Under the pieces are notes generated by a model. It ran no database searches and was not told the DNA's origin. It saw only the letters and a list, made by a program, of their open reading frames with translations. Shown piece after piece: positions 8,877 through 36,622 of a stretch of DNA of 36,663 bases (the first letter of the stretch is position 1; each line of letters starts with the position of its first letter). The DNA is taken from assembly GCA_016866815.1 (NCBI GenBank), contig VGKZ01000001.1:1-36663 (forward strand), given 5' to 3'. This DNA is from Candidatus Peregrinibacteria bacterium (GTDB lineage Bacteria; Patescibacteriota; Gracilibacteria; Peribacterales; Peribacteraceae). The position numbers were made by a program, and so were the translations under genes.

Positions 8877-8890
8877 GTTTGGATCTGCCC

Positions 8891-9012
8891 TGACAACCTC
8901 TTATCTCGTGATACGGACAGAGCGCTTCGATGTTCCATGTCGTTAGCCCCCTGACAACCTCTTATCTCGTGATACGGACAGAGTGCTTCGATGTTCCATG
9001 TCGTTAGCCCCC
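8891..9012. repeat. 2 x 61-bp direct tandem duplication, 60/61 identical
   Basis: The unit is TGACAACCTCTTATCTCGTGATACGGACAGAG[C/T]GCTTCGATGTTCCATGTCGTTAGCCCCC, at 8891-8951 and 8952-9012. The end of the second unit runs into the 30-bp palindrome. Confidence 0.9.
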
Positions 9013-9032
9013 GAATTAATTCGGGGGCTAAC
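9003..9032. terminator. 30-bp perfect palindrome GTTAGCCCCCGAATTAATTCGGGGGCTAAC between the converging PBP and yebC genes; possible bidirectional terminator hairpin
   Basis: I verified it is a perfect reverse complement of itself. The stem is 13 bp with a TTAA loop. There is no U-tract, so terminator function is uncertain. Confidence 0.4.
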
Positions 9033-9063: not shown

Positions 9064-9843
9064 TTATCCCAGCTTTCCCGCCACCACCTCATCGATATCC
9101 GCATTGGTATGCACCTCGGAGACGTCATCCTCTTCCTCCAGCAGCTCGATGATGTGCAGCAGTTTGCGTGCAGTTTCGGTGTCATTGATCCTGGCCTTCT
9201 GCGTGGGCACGTACTGCAATCCTGCGCTGAGGATTTCATAGCCTTTACCTTTCAAAAAATCACGGACGCGTGTCCACTCGGTCATATCCGTGGTAACGGT
9301 CAGAATATCGCCGTCTTCGGCGATGTCCTCTGCACCGAAATCGATCAGCTCAAGTTCCATGTCGTTAGCCCCCGAATTAATTCGGGGGCTAACTTCTTTT
9401 TTGCCGCTACCCTTGGCTGTGACGACGCCTTTCCGCGCGAACATCCACATTACCGATGCGGATTCTGCAAGGTTCCCCCCGTTCTTACTCAGGATGATCT
9501 TTATATTCGTGAGCGTCCTATTTCTATTGTCCGTCAGGCACTCGATGATGATCGCAGAATTGCCGGGACCGTATCCTGCATAGAGTTCCTCCGTCATCAT
9601 ATCGCCCTTCAGTTCCCCCGTACCCTTCTTGATGGCACGTTCGATGTTGGCATTCGGCACACTATCCATTTTGGCATTCTCAATCGCCGTCGCGAGTCTC
9701 GCATTCGTATCCGGGTCGCCGCTGCCGCCCACGCGTGCCGCAATTTCGATGAGCTTGCTGTGACGCGTGAAAATTTTGCCGCGCTTCGCATCCTGCGCGC
9801 CTTTCCGAATGCGGATATTGGCCCATTTGCTGTGTCCTGACAT
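9064..9843 (-). CDS. yebC: YebC/PmpR family DNA-binding transcriptional regulator
   Basis: It starts MSGHSKWANIRIRKGAQDAKRGKIFTRHSKLIEIAAR. Later motifs are YAGYGPGNSAIIIECLTDNRNRT and LEEEDDVSEVHTN. Confidence 0.92.
   Translation of the reverse strand: MSGHSKWANIRIRKGAQDAKRGKIFTRHSKLIEIAARVGGSGDPDTNARLATAIENAKMDSVPNANIERAIKKGTGELKGDMMTEELYAGYGPGNSAIIIECLTDNRNRTLTNIKIILSKNGGNLAESASVMWMFARKGVVTAKGSGKKEVSPRINSGANDMELELIDFGAEDIAEDGDILTVTTDMTEWTRVRDFLKGKGYEILSAGLQYVPTQKARINDTETARKLLHIIELLEEEDDVSEVHTNADIDEVVAGKLG
9364..9393. repeat. second copy of the 30-bp perfect palindrome, inside yebC and in frame (10 codons, VSPRINSGAN)
   Basis: The 40-nt block GTTCCATGTCGTTAGCCCCCGAATTAATTCGGGGGCTAAC is identical at 8993-9032 and 9354-9393. 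Confidence 0.9.
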
Positions 9844-11027: not shown

Positions 11028-11109
11028 AACCGAAGCAGCAGGGCTATGGTGAACCGCCAGCCTGCGCTCGCCTCCGGGCGAGCTTCGGCCGGCAACCTGC
11101 TGCGCAGGT

Positions 11110-11250
11110 TGGAGCCGTCGATGGGGACCTGCCTGCCGGCAGGCAGGTTGAACCCATGACCCCGTCCTTACCATGGACGTGCCGCTGCGCGGCAGAGTTT
11201 TTTTATGTGTGCGTCTCACGTTGTTCGACGCACCACTGAGCTACAACGGC
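11110..11250 (-). pseudogene. tRNA-Thr(GGU)-like gene interrupted by two insertions (probable pseudogene)
   Basis: It aligns end to end with the intact copy at 11324-11398, with three exceptions. The 20-nt palindrome CCTGCCTGCCGGCAGGCAGG (11128-11147) sits in the T-loop. A 49-nt block (11183-11231) replaces 3 nt of the D-arm. There is one acceptor-stem change, C to T, giving a G-U pair. Confidence 0.7.
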
Positions 11251-11323
11251 AAATGGAGCCCTGAAAGGACTGCGTCTCAAGCCACTCACGCTTCGCTCAC
11301 GCTCGCGTTCGAGAGCTTTCGAC

Positions 11324-11398
11324 TGGAGCCGTCGATGGGGATTGAACCCATGACCCCGTCCTTACCATGGACGTGCTCTACCACTGAGCTACGACGGC
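11324..11398 (-). tRNA. tRNA-Thr (anticodon GGU), CCA encoded
   Basis: Manual cloverleaf: GCCGTCG TA GCTC AGTGGTA GAGC A CGTCC AUGGUAA GGACG GGGTC ATGGG TTCAATC CCCAT CGACGGC T CCA. Confidence 0.9.
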
Positions 11399-11419
11399 GT
11401 ATGCGCACGCGAGTCTACA

Positions 11420-11839
11420 TTATTGGTCTGCAAGTTCCACGGTGTCGATCCAGGATTGCGGGGTTTTTCCGGCATGTTTTCGCAATGCGTTCTTGAGTGT
11501 GTGCAGCCCCAGGAGCGCGCACTTGAAGCGCCGCGGACCGACGGGTACGCCGAGTAGTGCATACATGTCGTTCTTTGTCATCCGTTCGATGTCGTTCGAA
11601 GTCTTGCCAACCAACTCTTCAGCGAGGATCGACATTCCCGCTTGTGAGATTGCACAGCCGCTCCCTTCCCATGTGACATCGGTCATAACGCCATTTGTTA
11701 TTGTGAATGCGATTGTGAGTTCGTCCCCGCAACTCGGATTCTGCTCTGCGTGAGTGACATGCCAGTCCGTAGGTACGATCGTTCCCTTTCCTCTGGGGTT
11801 CCGGTAATGCTCGAGAATGTTCTCTGCGTAGAGGTCCAT
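11420..11839 (-). CDS. sufU: SufU/IscU-type Fe-S cluster assembly scaffold / sulfur acceptor
   Basis: Motifs seen: LYAENILEHYRNPRGKG, NPSCGDELTI, WEGSGCAISQAGMSILAEELVGK, PRRFKCALLGLHTLKNAL. ATG 11839 (MDLYAE...) is preferred over the track start at 11923. Confidence 0.85.
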   Translation of the reverse strand: MDLYAENILEHYRNPRGKGTIVPTDWHVTHAEQNPSCGDELTIAFTITNGVMTDVTWEGSGCAISQAGMSILAEELVGKTSNDIERMTKNDMYALLGVPVGPRRFKCALLGLHTLKNALRKHAGKTPQSWIDTVELADQ

Positions 11840-12188: not shown

Positions 12189-13391
12189 TGTGACTTCGTC
12201 CTCTGTATTGTAGATACCCACAGAGACTCGCGTACTTGCGGGGATGTTCAGGTGATCATGTAGGGGCTGGCAGCAGTGGTGACCGGCGCGCAGACAGATG
12301 CCGCGATTGCCGAGGACATCCGTCAGGTCATGCGGATGCGAGCCACGGATAATGAAACTGATGCAGCCTGAGAGCAATGCGCCTGCCTGCGGTACCTTGT
12401 CGCGAGCGAAGTTCGGCAGAAATTTGAGATCGGGGATATCGGCAAGTGCTGTGACAGCAGCACGGATCAATTTCGTCTCGTGCGCTTCGATGTCCTTCCA
12501 TGGATACTGCGATATCCAATCTATCGTGGCGGCGAGCCCGACAGCTTGTGCAAGGGGTGGCGTACCTGCCTCGAATTTCTGCGGGATATCCGCAGCCGTG
12601 AATCCGGTTTTCGTCACATTCCCGATCATTCCTCCGCCACCGAGAAACGGTGGCATCGCTTCCAGGAGTTTGCGTTTCCCGTACAGAACGCCGATCCCGG
12701 TCGGTCCATAGAGTTTGTGTCCGGAGAATACCAGAAAGTCACAGTCGAGATCCGCAACATCTACCGGATGATGGGCGATGAGTTGTGTAGCATCAACCGT
12801 CACGAGCGCACCCGATGCGTGCGCTGTTTTGATTATGTCTTTGAGCGGGGGCCGGACCCCAAGAACGTTGCTCTGTCCGGTGATGCACACCATCTTGGTT
12901 TTTCCTGCTTTCAAAAGTTCTTCAAGCTCTTCCATGCGCGGCATTCCGGTCTCGTCGATGCCAACCCATGCGATCTCTATCCCGATGTCCTCTTTATGTT
13001 GCAGCCACGGCACAATCGCACTGTGATGTTCGAGCAGTGTGAGTGCGACAACGTCTCCTTTTTTGACATTCTGCTTTCCCCAGCTCTTCGCGACGATGTT
13101 CAGGGACTCCGTTGCGTTACGCGTGAAGATAATTTCATGTGTTGCCGCTCCGATGAATTCTGCGACAGTCTTCCGCGCACTTTCGAACTTTTCCGTCGCG
13201 CGTTCGGCCAGAACATGCATACCCCTATGCGGATTTCCGCGGTCATGCCTCTCACATTCGCTCATCGCTTCGAGCACGGCCATCGGCACCTGTGCGGTTG
13301 CGGCGGAATCCAGATACACGAGCGGGTGCCCGTTGATCTGCTGCTGTAGAGCGGGGAATTGCCGGCGAATTGCTGAAGTGTCGAGAGACAT
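12144..13391 (-). CDS. sufS: cysteine desulfurase, SufS subfamily
   Basis: Motifs seen: IRRQFPAL...PLVYLDSAATAQ, FLVFSGHKLYGPTGIGVLYG (the PLP-binding Lys), RAGHHCCQPL (the catalytic Cys loop). ATG 13391 (MSLDTS...) was chosen. Confidence 0.92.
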   Translation of the reverse strand: MSLDTSAIRRQFPALQQQINGHPLVYLDSAATAQVPMAVLEAMSECERHDRGNPHRGMHVLAERATEKFESARKTVAEFIGAATHEIIFTRNATESLNIVAKSWGKQNVKKGDVVALTLLEHHSAIVPWLQHKEDIGIEIAWVGIDETGMPRMEELEELLKAGKTKMVCITGQSNVLGVRPPLKDIIKTAHASGALVTVDATQLIAHHPVDVADLDCDFLVFSGHKLYGPTGIGVLYGKRKLLEAMPPFLGGGGMIGNVTKTGFTAADIPQKFEAGTPPLAQAVGLAATIDWISQYPWKDIEAHETKLIRAAVTALADIPDLKFLPNFARDKVPQAGALLSGCISFIIRGSHPHDLTDVLGNRGICLRAGHHCCQPLHDHLNIPASTRVSVGIYNTEDEVTLLVRAIDEALKTLA

Positions 13392-13423
13392 GGAGATTGT
13401 GATGGTACACCAAAGCAGTTGCA

Positions 13424-13449
13424 CTTTCTTTTCAGCAGTGAAAAGAAAG
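13424..13449. promoter_or_regulatory. 26-bp perfect inverted repeat CTTTCTTTTCA-GCAG-TGAAAGAAAG-type site (arms CTTTCTTTTCA / TGAAAAGAAAG) in the sufS / GT-C divergent region; candidate operator or 5'-UTR hairpin
   Basis: The 11-bp arms were verified as exact reverse complements. Confidence 0.4.
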
Positions 13450-13551
13450 GGCATTCCATCAATGAGAAGCGAGCGCTGTATTCAAGAGCAGCGTTATTCT
13501 TCTATGGAAACTTCATTCACAGTAAACCGCGTATCCTGTACCCTTTCTCCG

Positions 13552-16335
13552 ATGGAACGAAAAATGATTCAGATCCTCTCAGCGTCGCTGTTTATTGTGA
13601 TGCTCCTCTGGGGTGGCTATACGCTTCTCTACTACCTCGGCGTGCCGGTTCACGGGGCGGTACTCCTGCCGGATGACGTGCATAAGTCCCTTGAAGGCAT
13701 CTGTGCCGGCGACGATGTCGTGTGCAGAGGTGCATTCGCACTCTTTGGTGTCCTGTGGCACTCACTTACACGTGTGCCGTTTGTGATCTGGTATGCGGTG
13801 ACGTGTATTGTGCTGTATGCGCTTGTTCTTGCATGGCGATACGTTCGAACGCTGCGTTGGAATGCGGAGATTGTCCTGAAGCCTTGGCATGTGCTTGCGT
13901 TGTGCTTCGCATCGATGTGGTTGCTTTTCACCTGCCTGAGTCTCTCGAACAACGGTGACCTGCCCTTCAATCATTTGATAGAACCGCTGCCGGATGTCTA
14001 TAAGAACGCCGGACCGCAGGCGATCGTTGCCCTCCGGGAAAATTACGATGCGCTCAAGGAGCGGGGATGTCTGAAGCCGATCGGCACCTTCGGTGCAGCG
14101 GAAGCGAGTGAAATCACATTCTTTTGTTTCCAGACATCGTTCTTCACGCGCGTTGTTCCTCCGCTCATCTTCACCCTGCTTTTTCTGTGTGAACTTTTGG
14201 TGCTGGGCCGATTCCTCTTACGGAAGGCACTGCGCATCAGTACAGATAGCTTGCTGGAAGAAGCGGTTCTTTCGTTGGGTGTCGGTGCCTGTACGATGGT
14301 AGCGGCGTTATGGGTTCTTGCAGTTGCGCATGTCTTTATCATGCCTGTCGGTTGGGCGTTGGCGCTCTTGCTCCCGTTGGTGTTGTTTTGGGATGCACGG
14401 TATTGGTTGGATCGATTTCTGCATGCGGAGTGGAGAGTACATGTGCCGTGGTGGAGTCCGGTGCTGCTGCTTTCATGGTTTCTGCTCAGCTATCTTGCGT
14501 TCAATTTCATCAATATTGTTCGCCCCTTCCCGATCGGATGGGATGACCTTGGAAGTTACCTGAACAGGCCGCGACAACTCGTCAGCTACGGGCATTTCAT
14601 TTTCTCGATGTCCGCGTTCCAGTGGGAGTACCTGACGGCTCTCGGATTCCTGCTCTTCGGGTTCGAAAGCACTTTCGGCGCCACAGCATCGCTTGCCATC
14701 AACTGGACGCAGGGCCTTCTGGCGGTGCTGATCATCATGATGTTCGTCCGGACATATCTCGGTAAAGGCAGGGGACTTCTCTCGGCAACTCTCTACTACA
14801 CACTCCCGCTCGTCGGACATTTTTCGTTCGCCGATATGAAGATCGACAATGCGGTCTTCAGTATGGGTGCACTCGCGACGTTCATGCTCCTGAGAGGAAC
14901 TATCCGTGACGATGAGCAGTCATCGTCTACGGAAGCATGGCGTCACATTCTGCTTGCAGGCGTTTTCGTAGGCTTTGCATTCGCCATGAAGGTGACGGCG
15001 ATCATGGTGCTGATGGCTCTTGGAGCAGCTCTTGCCGGTATCGTTCTTCACCCTCTCGGCTTCGTTGCCGGTGTCATCGGAGCGTGTGCTGTCCTCATCG
15101 AGCAGGGTGCGTTGAACCTGGCGGGACTTCTGGAGCGCGTCGGCTACGATCCACATTTGATTGCCCCACAAACGGTTGCAATGGTATTCATCCTGATTGG
15201 CCTGGTGCCGCTTGCGGCAGCAGCGTATATGGGCAGGGCACGGTTGAGGAATTTCGTCATTCTCACCGCCATCTTCATTGGCGGGTTTGTTGCAGCGGTT
15301 CTGCCGTGGATGCAGTACAACAATATTGTGAGCGGTAGCATTGTGCCGAAGATCGCATTGGGCGCCCCGAACACTATCGGACCCATTCTGGATATGTTTG
15401 GTAACATAGATGATGCGACGTATTCACTGTCTCCGGAACTCAAGGTCGACCAGAAAGATCCAACATGTAAACCTTCTGGGGCAAGGGAAGAACTGGGGCG
15501 GTACTGGGGAACACGCACTGGCTGGGGACACTACATCACCCTGCCGTTCCGCAGTGTGATGAATCTCGACAGTGCGGGGTACTACGTCACCACGATTCCG
15601 GCGCTCCTTCTGTTTCCGCTCCTGCTTCTCCTGCCGTACTTTTGGCGTCGTGAAGGAAGGTGGCTCCGTTGGGTTTGGCTGACGACAGCGTTTCTCATTG
15701 TAGAGTGGATGTTCCTTGCGAACGGCATTCTCTGGTACGGCATCGGGATGTTCCTGGGTCTGGTGATCTGTCTGGAGGCGCTGCTTGCACGTGCGCCGGA
15801 TACGCTGAATCGCTCTGTGGCCGGTTTGCTGATTACCTGTTCACTTCTGTTTTCTCTCGGACAACGTTTGTGGCAGTACGAGTCACAGAGGAATTTATTT
15901 GAGTACCCGCTCGGCAAGGTCTCAGCGAAGGCTATCCGTGAACGGACGATTCCGTTCTACGATGACATCACAGAAGTCGTTCTTGACCGCGCACGGAAGA
16001 TTCCCGACAGACCCCTTCTCTTCCGCGTGGGAACGTTCATGCCGTACTTCGTACCAAGGAATCTCGAAGTCATCGGCATTAGTGATCACCAGCTTGATTT
16101 CTTCAATTGTCTCTACCAGGGCCGCGATCCAGAGGTGATGGTTGCCCGTCTCAAAGCACTCGGTTTCAACAGCATCGTCTTCGATACGAATGCGGCGACC
16201 ATCGAGCGTGACCAGAACGGTTCCCTTCACCAGAAAGTGCAGATGTTCGCTGATTTTATCAATAACCCGAAAGCAGGTCTGCAGGTGGTTATCAACGATC
16301 CGACTGCGGGAGTAGCGTTCATTCTGATTCCGTAA
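13552..16335 (+). CDS. large polytopic membrane protein, putative GT-C-fold glycosyltransferase with a C-terminal soluble domain
   Basis: About 927 aa with more than 15 hydrophobic segments. An early extracytoplasmic loop carries an acidic motif (FPIGWDDLGSY). The C-terminal tail of about 190 aa is non-membrane. The track ORF start at 13039 is antisense to sufS, so I chose ATG 13552 (or 13564). Confidence 0.7.
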   Translation: MERKMIQILSASLFIVMLLWGGYTLLYYLGVPVHGAVLLPDDVHKSLEGICAGDDVVCRGAFALFGVLWHSLTRVPFVIWYAVTCIVLYALVLAWRYVRTLRWNAEIVLKPWHVLALCFASMWLLFTCLSLSNNGDLPFNHLIEPLPDVYKNAGPQAIVALRENYDALKERGCLKPIGTFGAAEASEITFFCFQTSFFTRVVPPLIFTLLFLCELLVLGRFLLRKALRISTDSLLEEAVLSLGVGACTMVAALWVLAVAHVFIMPVGWALALLLPLVLFWDARYWLDRFLHAEWRVHVPWWSPVLLLSWFLLSYLAFNFINIVRPFPIGWDDLGSYLNRPRQLVSYGHFIFSMSAFQWEYLTALGFLLFGFESTFGATASLAINWTQGLLAVLIIMMFVRTYLGKGRGLLSATLYYTLPLVGHFSFADMKIDNAVFSMGALATFMLLRGTIRDDEQSSSTEAWRHILLAGVFVGFAFAMKVTAIMVLMALGAALAGIVLHPLGFVAGVIGACAVLIEQGALNLAGLLERVGYDPHLIAPQTVAMVFILIGLVPLAAAAYMGRARLRNFVILTAIFIGGFVAAVLPWMQYNNIVSGSIVPKIALGAPNTIGPILDMFGNIDDATYSLSPELKVDQKDPTCKPSGAREELGRYWGTRTGWGHYITLPFRSVMNLDSAGYYVTTIPALLLFPLLLLLPYFWRREGRWLRWVWLTTAFLIVEWMFLANGILWYGIGMFLGLVICLEALLARAPDTLNRSVAGLLITCSLLFSLGQRLWQYESQRNLFEYPLGKVSAKAIRERTIPFYDDITEVVLDRARKIPDRPLLFRVGTFMPYFVPRNLEVIGISDHQLDFFNCLYQGRDPEVMVARLKALGFNSIVFDTNAATIERDQNGSLHQKVQMFADFINNPKAGLQVVINDPTAGVAFILIP

Positions 16336-30720: not shown

Positions 30721-31709
30721 CGCGCTTTCACCTCTACAATTTTTCTGGCGAGATCACTCCCATCTCCCTCTCTACACAGAAACACTTCTCTTCCATCCGT
30801 ACATCGCTCAGTGATGGCGTCATTCTTCGCGGTGATGACGGGAATACCGCAAGCGACGGCGTCGAATACTTTATGCGCGATGACGCGTCGCGCTTTACCC
30901 GAGGTGCCGAAGGTGCCGAGCGCGATATCCGCCGATCGGAGGTATTTCGGGAGCTCAGTGAGTGGCTGGAAGGGGAGTAATGTGACATTTCCCAGCTTCT
31001 TTTGTTCAATGAGTGTCTCGATCATCGGTTTCGTCTGGCCGCCGCCGATGAGCGTGAAGTGAATATCGGGATGTGTTTTTTCAAGCACTTCAGCTGCATG
31101 GACTATATGTTCCACTCCCTGCAGCGGGATGAAACTGCCGATGAAGAGTACATTGAATTTCCCTTTCTGTAAGAGGCTTTCCCGTGGCCCTGGCGTGAAG
31201 AGGTCCTCGCGGGTTCCGACGTACAACACGCGGATGCGTTTCGGGTTCAGGAAGAATCTTCGGACGAAAAATTGCTTGTGTGCTTCCGTATCAATCAGGA
31301 TTTCATCCGCCATATGACAGAGAACGATGTCGGCAAGGTACAGCAGCCATGACACAGGATTGATCCAGGAGAATTTCCTGCGATCGCTGACGAGCGTGTC
31401 ACTCATGGAGACGAATGCATCAAAGATCAGCTTTCTGCGGGGAAATCGGGTCAGAGCCCATGCCAGCGGCATGATGATGAAGCCGGGGAAGGTGACGAGG
31501 ACAACGGGGTGTAGGGGGTAGGGCGTAGGGGGTAGGGTGCGTATTTTTTGAATGAGCTCACGGTATTTGGCGAAAAGACCCTTTGCGATTGTATGACAAT
31601 CAACGATGGTAAAACCTTCGTTTGCGTATGTCTTGCACACGTTCACGTACCGCGGGGATTCATGGCTATGGAAGCCTATGGTGATCAGAGTGCTCTGCAC
31701 GTAGCGCAT
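30717..31709 (-). CDS. GT1/GT4-like glycosyltransferase
   Basis: Motifs seen: FNVLFIGSFIPLQGVEHIV, RVIAHKVFDAVACGIPVITAKND. Confidence 0.78.
   Translation of the reverse strand: MRYVQSTLITIGFHSHESPRYVNVCKTYANEGFTIVDCHTIAKGLFAKYRELIQKIRTLPPTPYPLHPVVLVTFPGFIIMPLAWALTRFPRRKLIFDAFVSMSDTLVSDRRKFSWINPVSWLLYLADIVLCHMADEILIDTEAHKQFFVRRFFLNPKRIRVLYVGTREDLFTPGPRESLLQKGKFNVLFIGSFIPLQGVEHIVHAAEVLEKTHPDIHFTLIGGGQTKPMIETLIEQKKLGNVTLLPFQPLTELPKYLRSADIALGTFGTSGKARRVIAHKVFDAVACGIPVITAKNDAITERCTDGREVFLCREGDGSDLARKIVEVKAR
31504..31538. repeat. G-rich heptamer array ACGGGGT GTAGGGG GTAGGGC GTAGGGG GTAGGGT (+ strand; antisense to the gene)
   Basis: It is translated on the minus strand as TLPPTPYPLHPV. Confidence 0.85.
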
Positions 31710-31733: not shown

Positions 31734-31817
31734 GTAAGCTAAAAGCTATAAGCTGTAAGCTAAAAGCTATAAGCTATAAGCTGTAAGCTAAACGCTATAA
31801 GCTGCAAGCTCAAAGCT
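31734..31817. repeat. 12 x NNAAGCT heptamer array with a 21-bp higher-order unit (GTAAGCT AAAAGCT ATAAGCT, two perfect copies then variants)
   Basis: Read directly. It occupies most of the divergent intergenic region 31710-31823. Confidence 0.9.
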
Positions 31818-34759: not shown

Positions 34760-36622
34760 CTAATCCAATTCGAATTTTTCCAGGTATTCTTTGCTCTTCA
34801 GGATGCGGTTTTCAGGCATTTTCGTCTTCTCCAATAGGAAACTTCCCATGATGAGGTAATCCATGTGCGTATTCAGGAAACAGTTGAGCGCATCGCGCGG
34901 TGACTCCACGATCGGTTCCCCGCGGACATTGAACGAAGTGTTGATGATAACGGGACAGCCGGTCTGCTCTTCGAATGCTTTGATCAGGTCGTAGTAGAGT
35001 GGATTTTGATCGCGGTTGATGGTCTGGATACGCGCAGACCCGTCGACGTGCGTCACGGCGGGGATCTTGTCGCGTTTGTCCGGGTGAACGTCGGCGACCA
35101 GGAGCATGTACGGACTTTCGCGATCGAGCGCGAACCACTCTGCAGTTTTTTCCTCCAGTACCGTCGGTGCGAACGGGCGGAAGCTCTCGCGGAATTTGAT
35201 TTTCAGATTCACTTTCTGCCAGTTGTCTTTGTTGCGTGCATCGGCAATGATCGAGCGGTTCCCCAGCGAGCGGGGACCGTACTCCATGCGCCCCTGGAAC
35301 CATCCTATGACGTTGGTGCCGGTGAGGAGTTTTGAGCTTTGAGCGATGAGCTGTGAGCGATGAGAGAATTTCGTATAGAGAAGATTTTGTTGTTTGAGGA
35401 ATGTTTCGATTGCATCGTCGGAATAGTCATTACCGAGATAGACGTTTTCCATGCGCGATGTCCCTGAGCCTCCGTATTTTTTGTACCAAATCGACAGTGC
35501 CACGCCGAGCGCGCCTCCTGCATCGCCGGATGCCGGCTGAATCCAGATGTCTCTGAAGAGCCCGGATCGCAGAATCTTGCCGTTAGCGACGCAATTGAGC
35601 GCTACGCCACCCGCAAGGCACAGGTATTCGCTCTTCGTGACGTCCTTCGCATGACGGACGATGCCCATCATCACCTCTTCGGTGATTTCCTGCAGCGAGC
35701 GCGCGACGTCCTTGTGGAATTGTTCCAGCGAAGACTCCTGTTTCCTGCGTGGTTGTCCGAAAAGCCCTTCCATTGCGCCTCCGGTCATCGTCAAGCCGTG
35801 CTCGTAGGAGAAATACTTCATGTTCAGACGGTACGAACCATCCGGTTTGAGTTCGATCAGCTCATGCATTTCCTTCATATACTTCGGTTCTCCGTACGGC
35901 GCGAGACCCATCACTTTGTACTCCGCACTGTTCACTTTGAACCCGAGGTAGTACGTGATGGCGGAGTACAGAAGCCCGAGCGAGTGCGGGTAGTGAATCT
36001 CCTTGAGCAGCGTGACGTCGTTGCCAGTGCCTTTGCCGATGGTCGTTGTGGCCCACTCGCCTACGCCGTCCACCGTCACGACGGCGGCATCGGGAAAACC
36101 GCTGCAGTAAAAGGCGGATGCAGCGTGCGATTCATGGTGCGGAACGTAGAGAATGTCTCCTGCATACTGCAGCTCCTTTCGGATACGATCTGCTATCCAA
36201 AGTTTCTTCGTCATCCATTCCTTCATTGCCGGGAGAAACTGCGTGAGGCCGCGCGGCCACATCTTGATCGCGGTCGGCAGTATCCGGTCGAGGAATTTCA
36301 GGAGAGGTTTTTCGTAGAAGCCGACGCATGCGACATCCCTCATCGTGATTCCGGCGTGCCTTAGAGCCTGTTCAATAGCGTGTACGGGCAGTGATTCATC
36401 CTGCTTTTTCCGCGTGTAGCGTTCCTCCTGCGCTGCGAACAGGATCTCACCATCGCGTAGCAGCACGGCTGCAGCATCGTGGTAGTCGCAGGAGATGCCG
36501 AGAATGTAGACGGGATTGGACGTAGGACGTAGGGCGTAGGGGATAGGGCGTAGGGCTGAGAGGGGCTCTCTCAAAATTGTCGTTCCATGGATTGCGTTGT
36601 CTGCGGCTCGGAGGGAATCCAA
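34760..36622 (-). CDS. carbamoyltransferase (NodU/CmcH family)
   Basis: Motifs seen: ILGISCDYHDAAAVLLRDGEILFAAQEERYTRKK, HHESHAASAF, GWFQGRMEYGPRSLGNRSIIADAR, FRPFAP, INTSFNVRGEPIV. An N-terminal extension of about 40 aa contains a heptamer array. Confidence 0.9.
   Translation of the reverse strand: MDSLRAADNAIHGTTILREPLSALRPIPYALRPTSNPVYILGISCDYHDAAAVLLRDGEILFAAQEERYTRKKQDESLPVHAIEQALRHAGITMRDVACVGFYEKPLLKFLDRILPTAIKMWPRGLTQFLPAMKEWMTKKLWIADRIRKELQYAGDILYVPHHESHAASAFYCSGFPDAAVVTVDGVGEWATTTIGKGTGNDVTLLKEIHYPHSLGLLYSAITYYLGFKVNSAEYKVMGLAPYGEPKYMKEMHELIELKPDGSYRLNMKYFSYEHGLTMTGGAMEGLFGQPRRKQESSLEQFHKDVARSLQEITEEVMMGIVRHAKDVTKSEYLCLAGGVALNCVANGKILRSGLFRDIWIQPASGDAGGALGVALSIWYKKYGGSGTSRMENVYLGNDYSDDAIETFLKQQNLLYTKFSHRSQLIAQSSKLLTGTNVIGWFQGRMEYGPRSLGNRSIIADARNKDNWQKVNLKIKFRESFRPFAPTVLEEKTAEWFALDRESPYMLLVADVHPDKRDKIPAVTHVDGSARIQTINRDQNPLYYDLIKAFEEQTGCPVIINTSFNVRGEPIVESPRDALNCFLNTHMDYLIMGSFLLEKTKMPENRILKSKEYLEKFELD
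35331..35365. repeat. heptamer array TTTGAGC TTTGAGC GATGAGC TGTGAGC GATGAGA
   Basis: It lies inside the carbamoyltransferase gene and is translated on the minus strand as SHRSQLIAQSSKL. Confidence 0.85.
36515..36563. repeat. G-rich heptamer array ATTGGAC GTAGGAC GTAGGGC GTAGGGG ATAGGGC GTAGGGC TGAGAGG
   Basis: Seven units on the + strand, translated on the minus strand as PLSALRPIPYALRPTSN. It lies immediately upstream of the conserved YILGIS core. Confidence 0.85.

What the first reader, a model, noticed from the sequence alone, without database searches (positions are those of the whole stretch)
9354..9393. 30-bp perfect palindrome inserted in frame (10 codons) in the yebC coding sequence
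GTTAGCCCCCGAATTAATTCGGGGGCTAAC (9364-9393) is exactly self-complementary. It adds VSPRINSGAN to the protein between ...TAKGSGKKE and DMELELIDFGAED.

By comparison with characterised YebC/TACO1-family proteins, this position is the short linker between domains.

Because the insert is a perfect palindrome, both strands encode the same peptide. The ORF track shows SPRINSGAN on both the + and - strand ORFs.

An identical 40-nt block lies 361 bp away in the intergenic region (8993-9032).

The behaviour resembles Rickettsia palindromic elements, which colonise ORFs in frame. This element is far smaller and sits in a different lineage.

The same hairpin is my best terminator candidate downstream of yebC. 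The intragenic copy could therefore also attenuate yebC transcription or translation.
Basis: partly seen in the sequence, partly recalled or inferred. Interest (0 to 1): 0.68.

Follow-up and report, generated by a model that had tools for sequence, protein, structure and literature searches.

The report
Transposase hairpin inserted in-frame in yebC
The 30-base perfect palindrome inside yebC is real and is best read as a REP-like hairpin, the DNA substrate of an IS200/RAYT-type tyrosine transposase. It landed in frame in a variable surface loop; REPs inside genes have been reported before, but here the transposase itself sits in frame inside the leucyl-tRNA synthetase gene.

Summary
GTTAGCCCCCGAATTAATTCGGGGGCTAAC lies at 9364-9393 inside yebC and again at 9003-9032, with 10 further identical bases on one side.

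The two closest YebC orthologues (75% identity, same gene order) lack exactly these 30 bases, with no target-site duplication. An AlphaFold model puts the ten residues in a low-confidence coil.

The same 30-mer occurs in other Peribacteria MAGs, mostly 15-97 nt downstream of ORFs. In a contig from the same lake sample, probably the same MAG, it lies 39 nt upstream of a Y1 HUH transposase domain (Pfam Y1_Tnp; class-2 "Y---NP" motif). That domain is itself embedded in frame in leuS.

Stand-alone relatives of this transposase are flanked by inverted GTTAGC-headed hairpins. In Turneriella and other metagenomic contigs, hairpins with the same 22-nt core also flank Y1 transposase genes.

I read the element as a REP-like hairpin mobilised by a RAYT-class transposase. 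Selection kept the yebC copy because it is 3n long, stop-free in that frame, and sits in a tolerant loop. REPs inside genes are already described, so the yebC copy is a new member or variant of a known kind.

The terminator/attenuator idea is not supported. The leuS-embedded transposase is the more novel by-product.

The parts
9364..9393 (.). Intragenic copy of the 30-nt perfect palindrome GTTAGCCCCCGAATTAATTCGGGGGCTAAC. In yebC (minus strand) it is read as VSPRINSGAN, residues 151-160.
   Evidence: Absent from orthologues L141 and L142. RNA hairpin -25 kcal/mol, z = -7.
9003..9032 (.). Intergenic copy of the same palindrome, 31 nt downstream of the yebC stop, between the convergent yebC and PBP1A genes.
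   Evidence: No T-tract on either side. The position is typical of REPs (PMC3733652).
9354..9363 (-). Ten bases of native yebC coding sequence (GACATGGAAC on the minus strand, codons D-M-E-L) lying 3' of the hairpin. They are copied together with the hairpin to 8993-9002.
   Evidence: 40-nt block. 8/10 identical to the orthologous GAAATCGAAC / GAGATCGAAC, so they are native to yebC.
8993..9002 (-). Copy of the 10-nt yebC flank next to the intergenic palindrome. It implies that the intergenic copy derives from the yebC copy.
8888..9009 (.). 61-nt tandem duplication (2 units, 1 mismatch). Each unit ends in the half palindrome plus the 10-nt flank (GTTCCATGTCGTTAGCC...).
   Evidence: Comparable hairpin-adjacent tandem repeats occur in L078 (24 nt x3), L039 (30 nt x4) and L004 (111 nt x2).
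8942..8951 (.). Solo half-site GTTAGCCCCC, created by the tandem duplication.
9064..9843 (-). Host gene yebC (YebC/PmpR/TACO1 family, 259 aa), otherwise intact.
   Evidence: (family-invariant residues kept).

Best explanation
The palindrome is a REP-like hairpin element: the single-strand DNA stem-loop recognised by a Y1 HUH tyrosine transposase of the IS200/IS605-RAYT superfamily.

In this Peribacteria lineage the transposase is not a free gene. It is a domain embedded in frame in leuS, with copies of the hairpin immediately 5' of it.

Inferred mechanism: the hairpin extrudes in single-stranded DNA, for example on the lagging-strand template. The transposase cuts at or near its foot, and the piece is pasted into another single-stranded site without target-site duplication.

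Most surviving copies sit just downstream of genes. The yebC copy survived inside a gene for three reasons: it is 30 nt (10 codons), it has no stop codon in the frame used, and it fell in a length-variable surface loop.

The yebC copy later gave rise to the intergenic copy 361 bp away, carrying 10 nt of yebC flank with it. A 61-nt slippage duplication followed.

Shown: the insertion, the family, its association with Y1 transposases, and the absence of a target-site duplication. Inferred: that the leuS-embedded enzyme is active and performed the moves, and the cleavage positions.
For: (1) Clean 30-nt insertion with no duplication, versus the syntenic orthologues.

(2) The same 30-mer occurs at non-orthologous sites in other Peribacteria MAGs and metagenomes: L002, L004 x2, L011, L012, L053, L078, L084. 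Variants stay palindromic: L004 4945-4974 has centre GATGTACATC, L039 has GTTCAC...GTGAAC, and L078 8003-8032 has a flipped stem.

(3) In L078 the identical 30-mer lies 39 nt upstream of the Met of a Y1_Tnp domain. Scores: Pfam 70.7 bits (cut-off 23); NCBIfam IS200 model 62.1 (cut-off 55); HUH motif = DHVH; Tyr motif = YIQKNP. Y---NP is the class-2 (TnpA_REP) signature (PMC6006769).

(4) The L078 LeuRS is MBM3231396.1 and the window's YebC is MBM3230703.1. Both are labelled 'Candidatus Peregrinibacteria bacterium', come from the same lake sample, and their accessions are 693 apart.

(5) L039 and L004 have the same leuS-embedded domain with the hairpin next to it.

(6) Stand-alone relatives at 50-56% identity (L143, L145) are flanked by inverted hairpins with the same GTTAGC head, a REPtron-like layout; on the 914-nt contig L144 only an upstream hairpin with head GTTACC is seen.

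(7) Hairpins with the same 22-nt core flank Y1 genes in Turneriella L006 and L120, and in L074. Six of the 138 loci found only through the 18-mer have a Y1 gene within about 100 nt of it.

(8) In hairpin variants, 9 of 13 stem pairs show double compensatory changes and 96% of cells are paired. At orthologous sites the core is 22/22 identical while the coding flanks are 66-82% identical.

(9) Six of 13 Peribacteria-type copies lie 15-97 nt 3' of an ORF, as is usual for REPs (PMC3733652).

(10) The co-copied flank is 10 nt. That equals the distance from the right-end hairpin to its cleavage site in IS608 (PMC3597680).
Against: - No transposase gene lies in the window. The link to L078 rests on shared sample, label and accession proximity, not on one assembled molecule.
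- Copy number is low: 2 full copies plus a half in 36.7 kb, and 2-3 exact-core copies per representative genome. Classical REPs number in the hundreds.
- The hairpin is a perfect palindrome with symmetric GTTAGC feet. It lacks the canonical GT[AG]G guide. For E. coli RAYT, strengthening the palindrome abolished cleavage (PMC3733652).
- The Y1 domain scores below NCBI's REP_Tyr_transpos cut-off (51.2 against 80).
- In leuS the hairpins are only on the 5' side of the domain.
- A Y1 domain buried in a roughly 1000-aa monomeric synthetase may be inactive.
- No target motif could be derived from the flanks.
- The hairpin variants used for covariation were picked by eye because they are palindromes.
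Confidence: 0.72

Rival explanations
1. It is a selfish or neutral palindromic repeat that spreads without a dedicated transposase. Possible routes are hairpin-induced replication slippage, template switching, or gene conversion between copies. On this reading the adjacency to Y1 genes is a side effect, for instance because hairpins are preferred landing sites for Y1 elements.
For: Tandem duplications that begin in the right half of the palindrome recur next to it: in the window (61 nt), L078, L039 and L004. The intergenic copy lies only 361 bp from the yebC copy and carries its flank, which a local copying error could also produce. Copy number is low.
Against: Local slippage cannot place the identical 30-mer at unrelated loci in different MAGs. 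Stand-alone Y1 genes are bracketed on both sides by inverted hairpins of the same design. That is the layout of a cognate substrate, not of a random target.
Confidence: 0.13
2. It is a host-selected regulatory hairpin: a terminator or mRNA 3' stabiliser downstream of yebC, and an attenuator inside it.
For: The hairpin is very stable (-25 to -26 kcal/mol, z about -7). The intergenic copy lies 31 nt after the stop between convergent genes. REPs are reported to stabilise mRNA and to terminate transcription (PMC6006769, PMC3733652).
Against: No T-run follows either copy on the yebC sense strand. The orthologues use unrelated hairpins downstream of yebC. A regulatory role does not explain why identical copies sit in leuS next to a transposase domain or in other genomes. 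This role could be secondary rather than a rival.
Confidence: 0.08
3. It is a native, lineage-specific YebC loop, or an assembly, adapter or chimera artefact.
For: The loop varies in length among orthologues. The centre GAATTAATTC looks like a filled-in EcoRI site (my own recollection, untested).
Against: The nearest orthologues lack exactly the 30 nt. The sequence is identical in independent assemblies from two samples and in other studies' MAGs, including an isolate genome. The reading frame is continuous across it.
Confidence: 0.03

Closest known systems
REP sequences with their RAYT/TnpA_REP transposase (REPtrons), including the 'REPs inside genes' of Di Nocera et al. 2013 (PMC3733652)
   Same: A short GC-rich palindromic stem-loop, dispersed mostly just 3' of genes. 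Cognate hairpins flank a Y1 HUH transposase with the class-2 Y---NP motif. There is no target-site duplication. Occasional in-frame copies occur inside genes, and tRNA synthetase genes are among the published hosts.
   Different: The palindrome is perfect, with symmetric GTTAGC/GCTAAC feet in place of a one-sided GT[AG]G tag. Copy number is very low. The lineage is a candidate phyla radiation (CPR) one (Peregrinibacteria). The transposase is itself fused in frame into leuS and scores below NCBI's RAYT cut-off.
Rickettsia palindromic elements (RPE)
   Same: Palindromic repeats found in frame inside genes for apparently functional proteins, adding a surface peptide.
   Different: Classical RPE-1 is around 100-150 bp, restricted to Rickettsia, and has no assigned transposase (sizes from my own knowledge). 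This element is 30 nt and has a candidate transposase. No sequence similarity was tested.
IS200/IS605 insertion sequences (IS608 model)
   Same: A Y1 HUH transposase that binds subterminal hairpins on single-stranded DNA. Insertion without duplication. The cleavage site lies 10 nt 3' of the right-end hairpin (PMC3597680), matching the 10-nt flank co-copied here. The Turneriella and L074 enzymes carry the class-1 Y---Q motif.
   Different: The window element carries no gene and has a single hairpin, not distinct left and right ends. The hairpins around the stand-alone relatives are in inverted, not direct, orientation.
Inteins (functional analogy for the leuS-embedded transposase only)
   Same: A selfish-element protein domain translated in frame within an essential housekeeping protein at a conserved site.
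   Different: There are no splicing motifs and no evidence of excision at the protein level. The domain apparently stays in the mature synthetase.

Membership tests
REP / REPtron (RAYT-associated repeats) | Short (about 20-40 nt) GC-rich palindromic stem-loop | tested here: met
   30 nt, 13-bp stem, -25 kcal/mol.
REP / REPtron (RAYT-associated repeats) | Conserved GT[AG]G guide tetranucleotide at the 5' foot (PMC6006769) | tested here: not met
   The foot is GTTAGC, mirrored as GCTAAC on the other side. This head is conserved in Peribacteria copies and in hairpins flanking the stand-alone relatives L143 and L145 (L144 has GTTACC), but it is not GT[AG]G.
REP / REPtron (RAYT-associated repeats) | Cognate hairpins flank a Y1 transposase gene, in inverted orientation | tested here: met
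   Not in the window. In related loci: L145 and L143 (both sides, inverted), L006, L120 and L074 (both sides), L078, L039 and L004 (5' side only).
REP / REPtron (RAYT-associated repeats) | Transposase has HUH plus the class-2 'Y---NP' catalytic motif | tested here: met
   L078 has PDHVHVLV and IQYIQKNP. L039 and P0121-P0123 are alike. Motif definition from PMC6006769.
REP / REPtron (RAYT-associated repeats) | Protein passes NCBIfam NF047646 REP_Tyr_transpos cut-off | tested here: not met
   51.2 bits against a cut-off of 80. NF033573 (IS200/IS605 family) passes with 62.1 against 55.
REP / REPtron (RAYT-associated repeats) | Many dispersed copies per genome | tested here: inconclusive
   Two full copies plus one half in 36.7 kb. 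Two to three exact-core copies per representative MAG. The whole genome of the window's organism was not available.
REP / REPtron (RAYT-associated repeats) | Mostly extragenic, close to the 3' ends of genes | tested here: met
   Six of 13 Peribacteria-type copies lie 15-97 nt after a mechanical ORF's stop, and one lies in the last 15 codons of POR. The yebC copy is the exception.
Rickettsia palindromic elements | In-frame insertion in an ORF that keeps its conserved residues | tested here: met
Rickettsia palindromic elements | Element of about 100-150 bp belonging to the Rickettsia RPE sequence families | tested here: not met
   30 nt, in Peregrinibacteria. Sequence comparison with RPEs was not done.
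IS200/IS605 insertion sequence | Carries tnpA between distinct left-end and right-end hairpins | tested here: not met
   The window element is a bare hairpin. tblastn finds no Y1 in the window.
IS200/IS605 insertion sequence | Insertion without target-site duplication | tested here: met
   Empty-site comparison with L141 and L142.
IS200/IS605 insertion sequence | Cleavage about 10 nt 3' of the hairpin foot (IS608) | tested here: inconclusive
   A 10-nt flank was co-duplicated. The distance matches PMC3597680, but this is a single event.
Intrinsic terminator | GC-rich hairpin followed by a U-run on the transcribed strand | tested here: not met
   The intergenic copy has no T-run on either side. 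The intragenic copy has one only on the antisense strand.
MITE (TIR element with target-site duplication) | Terminal inverted repeats flanked by a direct duplication (e.g. TA) | tested here: not met
   The insertion is exactly the 30-nt palindrome and nothing is duplicated.

The most novel reading that the evidence does not exclude
In a clade of Peribacteria, a RAYT-class Y1 transposase has taken up permanent residence as a translated, stop-free, in-frame insertion in the essential leuS gene, just before the CP1 editing domain. This is an intein-like niche without splicing. From there it still mobilises its 30-nt hairpin, and that hairpin is itself built to be translatable: 3n long and open in two of three frames on both strands. 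Copies can therefore persist inside other essential genes such as yebC.
Probability: 0.3. Interest if true: 0.8.

Novelty: new variant of a known kind. Interest (0 to 1): 0.55.

Why it matters
For the window itself the result is modest. It explains an odd 10-residue loop in a conserved translation-associated protein as a mobile-DNA footprint, and it extends REP-type elements and 'REP-decorated proteins' to a reduced-genome CPR lineage.

The wider point is the system behind it. A transposase domain is carried in frame inside leuS in several diverged Peribacteria, together with its translated hairpins. If that domain is active, it would be a compact case of a selfish element protected from loss by residing in an essential gene. 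It would also give a simple substrate (a 30-40 nt oligonucleotide) for testing how single-hairpin REPs are cut and moved, which is still unsettled for RAYTs.

Tried and rejected
- TA-duplicating MITE (TTA[core]TAA), or insertion into a blunt palindromic restriction-like site (GTT|AAC, ATTT|AAAT). Rejected because the empty site in the orthologues shows a 30-nt gain with nothing duplicated, and because the variable 'outer stems' in Turneriella turned out to be part of a longer family consensus.
- Adapter, linker or filled-in EcoRI artefact. Rejected on reproducibility across samples, studies and an isolate genome.
- The 18-mer CCCCGAATTAATTCGGGG as a family marker. Many metagenome and viral hits are ordinary A/T-flanked terminators in AT-rich DNA, so the 18-mer alone is not diagnostic.
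- Full-text search for the sequence itself: no paper holds it.
- Searches for leuS plus IS200 and for Peregrinibacteria plus transposase plus palindromic: nothing relevant.
- The word-indexed protein search with the Y1 domain returned only 3 proteins. The exhaustive profile search was needed to see the leuS fusions.
- Rfam over the window: only a tRNA.

Full report
**1. The observation.**
The window holds GTTAGCCCCCGAATTAATTCGGGGGCTAAC twice, at 9003-9032 and 9364-9393. Shuffled sequence gives none. Each copy is a 15+15 perfect palindrome.

The string TTCCATGTCGTTAGCCCCC occurs a third time at 8933-8951. This is because a 61-nt unit ending in the half palindrome is tandemly duplicated at 8888-9009, with one mismatch.

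yebC is the minus-strand ORF 9064..9843 (259 aa). The palindrome is read as VSPRINSGAN.

**2. It is an insertion.**
The window protein is identical to a GenBank YebC from 'Candidatus Peregrinibacteria bacterium' (P0001).

The two closest orthologues (75% identity, 250 aa) lack exactly these ten residues. Their contigs share the S6-S18-yebC-convergent-PBP1A order. At the DNA level they read AAA AAA GAG|GAA ATC GAA CTG and AAA AAG GAA|GAG ATC GAA CTG. The window reads AAA AAA GAA[30 nt]GAC ATG GAA CTT.

The gain is therefore the palindrome itself. It lies between two codons and nothing is duplicated. More distant orthologues differ in length at this point by up to 7 residues.

An AlphaFold2 model (mean pLDDT 80) puts residues 145-157 in coil between strand 135-144 and helix 158-168. 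pLDDT is below 50 for residues 150-156. E. coli YebC (1KON) is shorter at this point. So the site is a tolerant loop. I could not confirm that it is an inter-domain linker.

Two JGI assemblies from two samples reproduce yebC and the whole intergenic arrangement at 100% identity.

**3. It belongs to a dispersed family.**
An exact scan of one genome per species with the 22-nt core found 17 loci.
- Four Peribacteria MAGs carry the core, always with the GTTA/TAAC extension, i.e. the full 30-mer.
- Several Turneriella (Leptospirales) MAGs carry it with a different and longer outer stem.
- One Spirosoma isolate also carries it.

Many of those hits are ordinary A/T-flanked terminators, so the 18-mer alone is not diagnostic. 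The scan did add three more full 30-mers (L053, L078, L084) and a variant (L039).

Census of Peribacteria-type copies:
- Six lie 15-97 nt downstream of an ORF, including the window's intergenic copy.
- One lies in the last 15 codons of a pyruvate:ferredoxin oxidoreductase gene (L012).
- Five lie inside leuS (see section 4).
- One, the yebC copy, is mid-gene.

In Turneriella, copies sit in frame at orthologous positions in a methyltransferase in three species, in a DUF985 cupin in two species, and at the C-terminus of COX15.

At the orthologous sites the coding flanks are only 66-82% identical, yet the 22-nt core is unchanged. The outer-stem differences are compensatory, for example catt/aatg against cgtt/aacg.

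**4. The link to a transposase.**
L078 comes from the same lake sample as a contig identical to the window over the yebC region compared. It carries a 1008/1020-aa LeuRS ORF. Between the catalytic core and the TTRPDT start of the CP1 editing domain, this ORF contains, all in frame:
- three 24-nt repeats;
- the identical 30-mer (VSPRINSGAN);
- a stem-flipped variant, GTTAGCTGGGGAATTAATTCCCCGGCTAAC (VSWGINSPAN);
- a domain of about 130 aa.

That domain scores as Pfam Y1_Tnp (70.7 bits) and as NCBIfam IS200/IS605 family (62.1 bits, above the cut-off). It also matches the RAYT model, but below its cut-off (51.2 against 80).

It keeps the HUH motif (DHVH) and the tyrosine motif YIQKNP. According to Quentin et al. 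2018, Y---NP marks class 2 (TnpA_REP) and Y---Q marks class 1 (IS200) (PMC6006769).

This LeuRS is MBM3231396.1 and the window's YebC is MBM3230703.1. Both carry the same organism label and their accessions are 693 apart. I take this as probable, not proven, membership of one MAG.

Further cases of the leuS-embedded domain:
- L039 has it at 54% identity. Next to it lie GTTCACCCCCGAATTAATTCGGGGGTGAAC and four 30-nt repeats, each ending in the right half-palindrome.
- L004 keeps a truncated domain with two 30-mers in a 111-nt duplication.
- An exhaustive profile search found further LeuRS-Y1 fusions (P0125, P0132, P0135).

**5. Free-standing relatives show the classical layout.**
The nearest stand-alone proteins (P0121-P0123, 50-56% identity) were examined on their contigs.
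- In L145 the gene is bracketed by GTTAGCCCGGCAATTTATTGCCGGGTTAG upstream and its inverted copy ...GGGCTAAC downstream. A second, inner hairpin pair is also inverted.
- L143 is similar on both sides. On the 914-nt contig L144 only an upstream hairpin (head GTTACC) is seen.

The head GTTAGC and the AAT-NN-ATT centre are shared with the window palindrome.

In Turneriella L006 and L120, a Y1 gene (Pfam 72.8 bits; YIQHQ, class-1 motif) is flanked by two palindromes of 32-42 nt. One carries the exact 22-nt core.

L074 has a third, divergent Y1 gene flanked by TCAGCCACGGAATTAATTCCGTGGCTGA and ATCAGCCCCCGAATTAATTCGGGGGCTG. A further hairpin lies in frame inside the gene.

Six of the 138 loci retrieved only through the 18-mer have a Y1 gene within about 100 nt of it. 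This is far more than chance for a gene present at most about once per genome (my estimate).

On 14 hairpin variants, 96% of stem cells pair and 9 of 13 pairs show double changes. The caveat is that I picked these variants because they looked palindromic.

**6. Mechanism.**
IS200/IS605 and RAYT enzymes bind hairpins on single-stranded DNA. They cleave at positions set by a guide sequence at the hairpin foot, and they insert without duplication, mainly on the lagging-strand template (PMC6006769).

The clean, duplication-free 30-nt gain in yebC fits this. The 10 nt shared by the two window copies are native yebC codons: 8/10 identical to the orthologues, encoding D-M-E-L where relatives have E-I-E-L. 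The intergenic copy was therefore copied from the yebC copy together with 10 nt on the 3' side.

In IS608 the right-end cleavage site lies 10 nt 3' of the hairpin (PMC3597680). The match is suggestive, but it rests on one event.

The recurrent tandem repeats that start in the right half-palindrome (window, L078, L039, L004) may come from hairpin-stalled replication slippage or from aberrant strand transfer. I cannot tell which.

Why in frame? The element is 3n long. It has a stop codon in only one of three frames, and the same holds on both strands by symmetry. It landed in a tolerant loop. Selection would remove other intragenic insertions.

**7. What is not supported.**
On the yebC sense strand neither copy is followed by a T-run. 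The only terminator-like call is the intragenic copy read on the antisense strand, where the KKE codons supply TTCTTTTTTG. The orthologues have unrelated hairpins downstream of yebC.

A role of the intergenic copy in protecting the mRNA 3' end is possible, since this is a known REP effect. It was not tested.

**8. Comparison with what is known, and novelty.**
REPs inside genes, 'REP-decorated' proteins (tRNA synthetases among them) and the kinship of short RPEs with REPs were described by Di Nocera et al. 2013 (PMC3733652). REP insertions inside tnpA_REP genes are noted by Quentin et al. 2018. The yebC insertion is therefore a new member or variant of a known kind.

The unusual features are:
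- a perfect palindrome with symmetric GTTAGC feet;
- very low copy number;
- a CPR host;
- a transposase that is itself an in-frame passenger of leuS in several diverged lineages.

I found no description of the last point in the searchable library. That is absence of evidence only.

**9. Limits.**
- The transposase is not in the window.
- Activity is inferred.
- Whole genomes could not be scanned.
- The exact-match scans bias what was seen.
- ORF-based gene calls in the loci are mechanical.

Noticed in passing
L078 7115-10177 (+); also L039 (about 13000-13950 on the reverse strand), L004 1-700, and proteins P0125, P0132, P0135: LeuRS genes of several Peribacteria carry a complete Y1 (IS200/RAYT-type) transposase domain in frame, just before the TTRPDT start of the CP1 editing domain, with translated hairpins and tandem repeats on its 5' side. 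A near-identical assembly (P0274) has 1 rather than 3 copies of the 8-aa repeat.
   Followed up: partly
Proteins P0161, P0185, P0249 (Eco57I/MmeI-type methyltransferases), P0266 (Type ISP), P0181: More distant Y1_Tnp domains are also embedded in the middle of restriction-modification proteins. In-frame Y1 insertions may be a wider phenomenon.
   Followed up: no
Protein P0135 (998 aa): A LeuRS that carries both the Y1 domain and an alpha/beta-hydrolase domain inserted further downstream.
   Followed up: no
L001, L014, L009 (methyltransferase); L008, L013, L085 (DUF985 cupin); L005 (COX15 C-terminus): In Turneriella the same 22-nt core sits in frame at orthologous positions in different species. 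The core is 22/22 conserved while the coding flanks are 66-82% identical, and the outer-stem changes are compensatory.
   Followed up: partly
L074 (positions 11080-11700, read on the reverse strand): A class-1-like Y1 transposase gene carries a hairpin (GGCCACGGAATTAATTCCGTGGCC) in frame inside its own coding sequence, besides flanking hairpins.
   Followed up: no
L146 1-41 and 713-753: This 761-nt public contig has Illumina adapter sequence at both ends and coverage of about 1. It is essentially an untrimmed read pair.
   Followed up: no
window 31735-31817: A heptamer array (TAAGCTA, about 10 copies), with further G-rich 7/14-nt repeats at 31507-31537 and 36512-36556. Not examined.
   Followed up: no
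window 11127-11148: A 22-nt perfect palindrome, ACCTGCCTGCCGGCAGGCAGGT, in a stretch without long ORFs near a tRNA gene (11327-11398, minus strand). Unrelated in sequence to the yebC element.
   Followed up: no
window 9364-9403 (+ strand): Read antisense to yebC, the intragenic hairpin plus the KKE codons forms a canonical terminator-like site (13-bp stem followed by TTCTTTTTTG). It could stop read-through from the convergent PBP1A gene.
   Followed up: no
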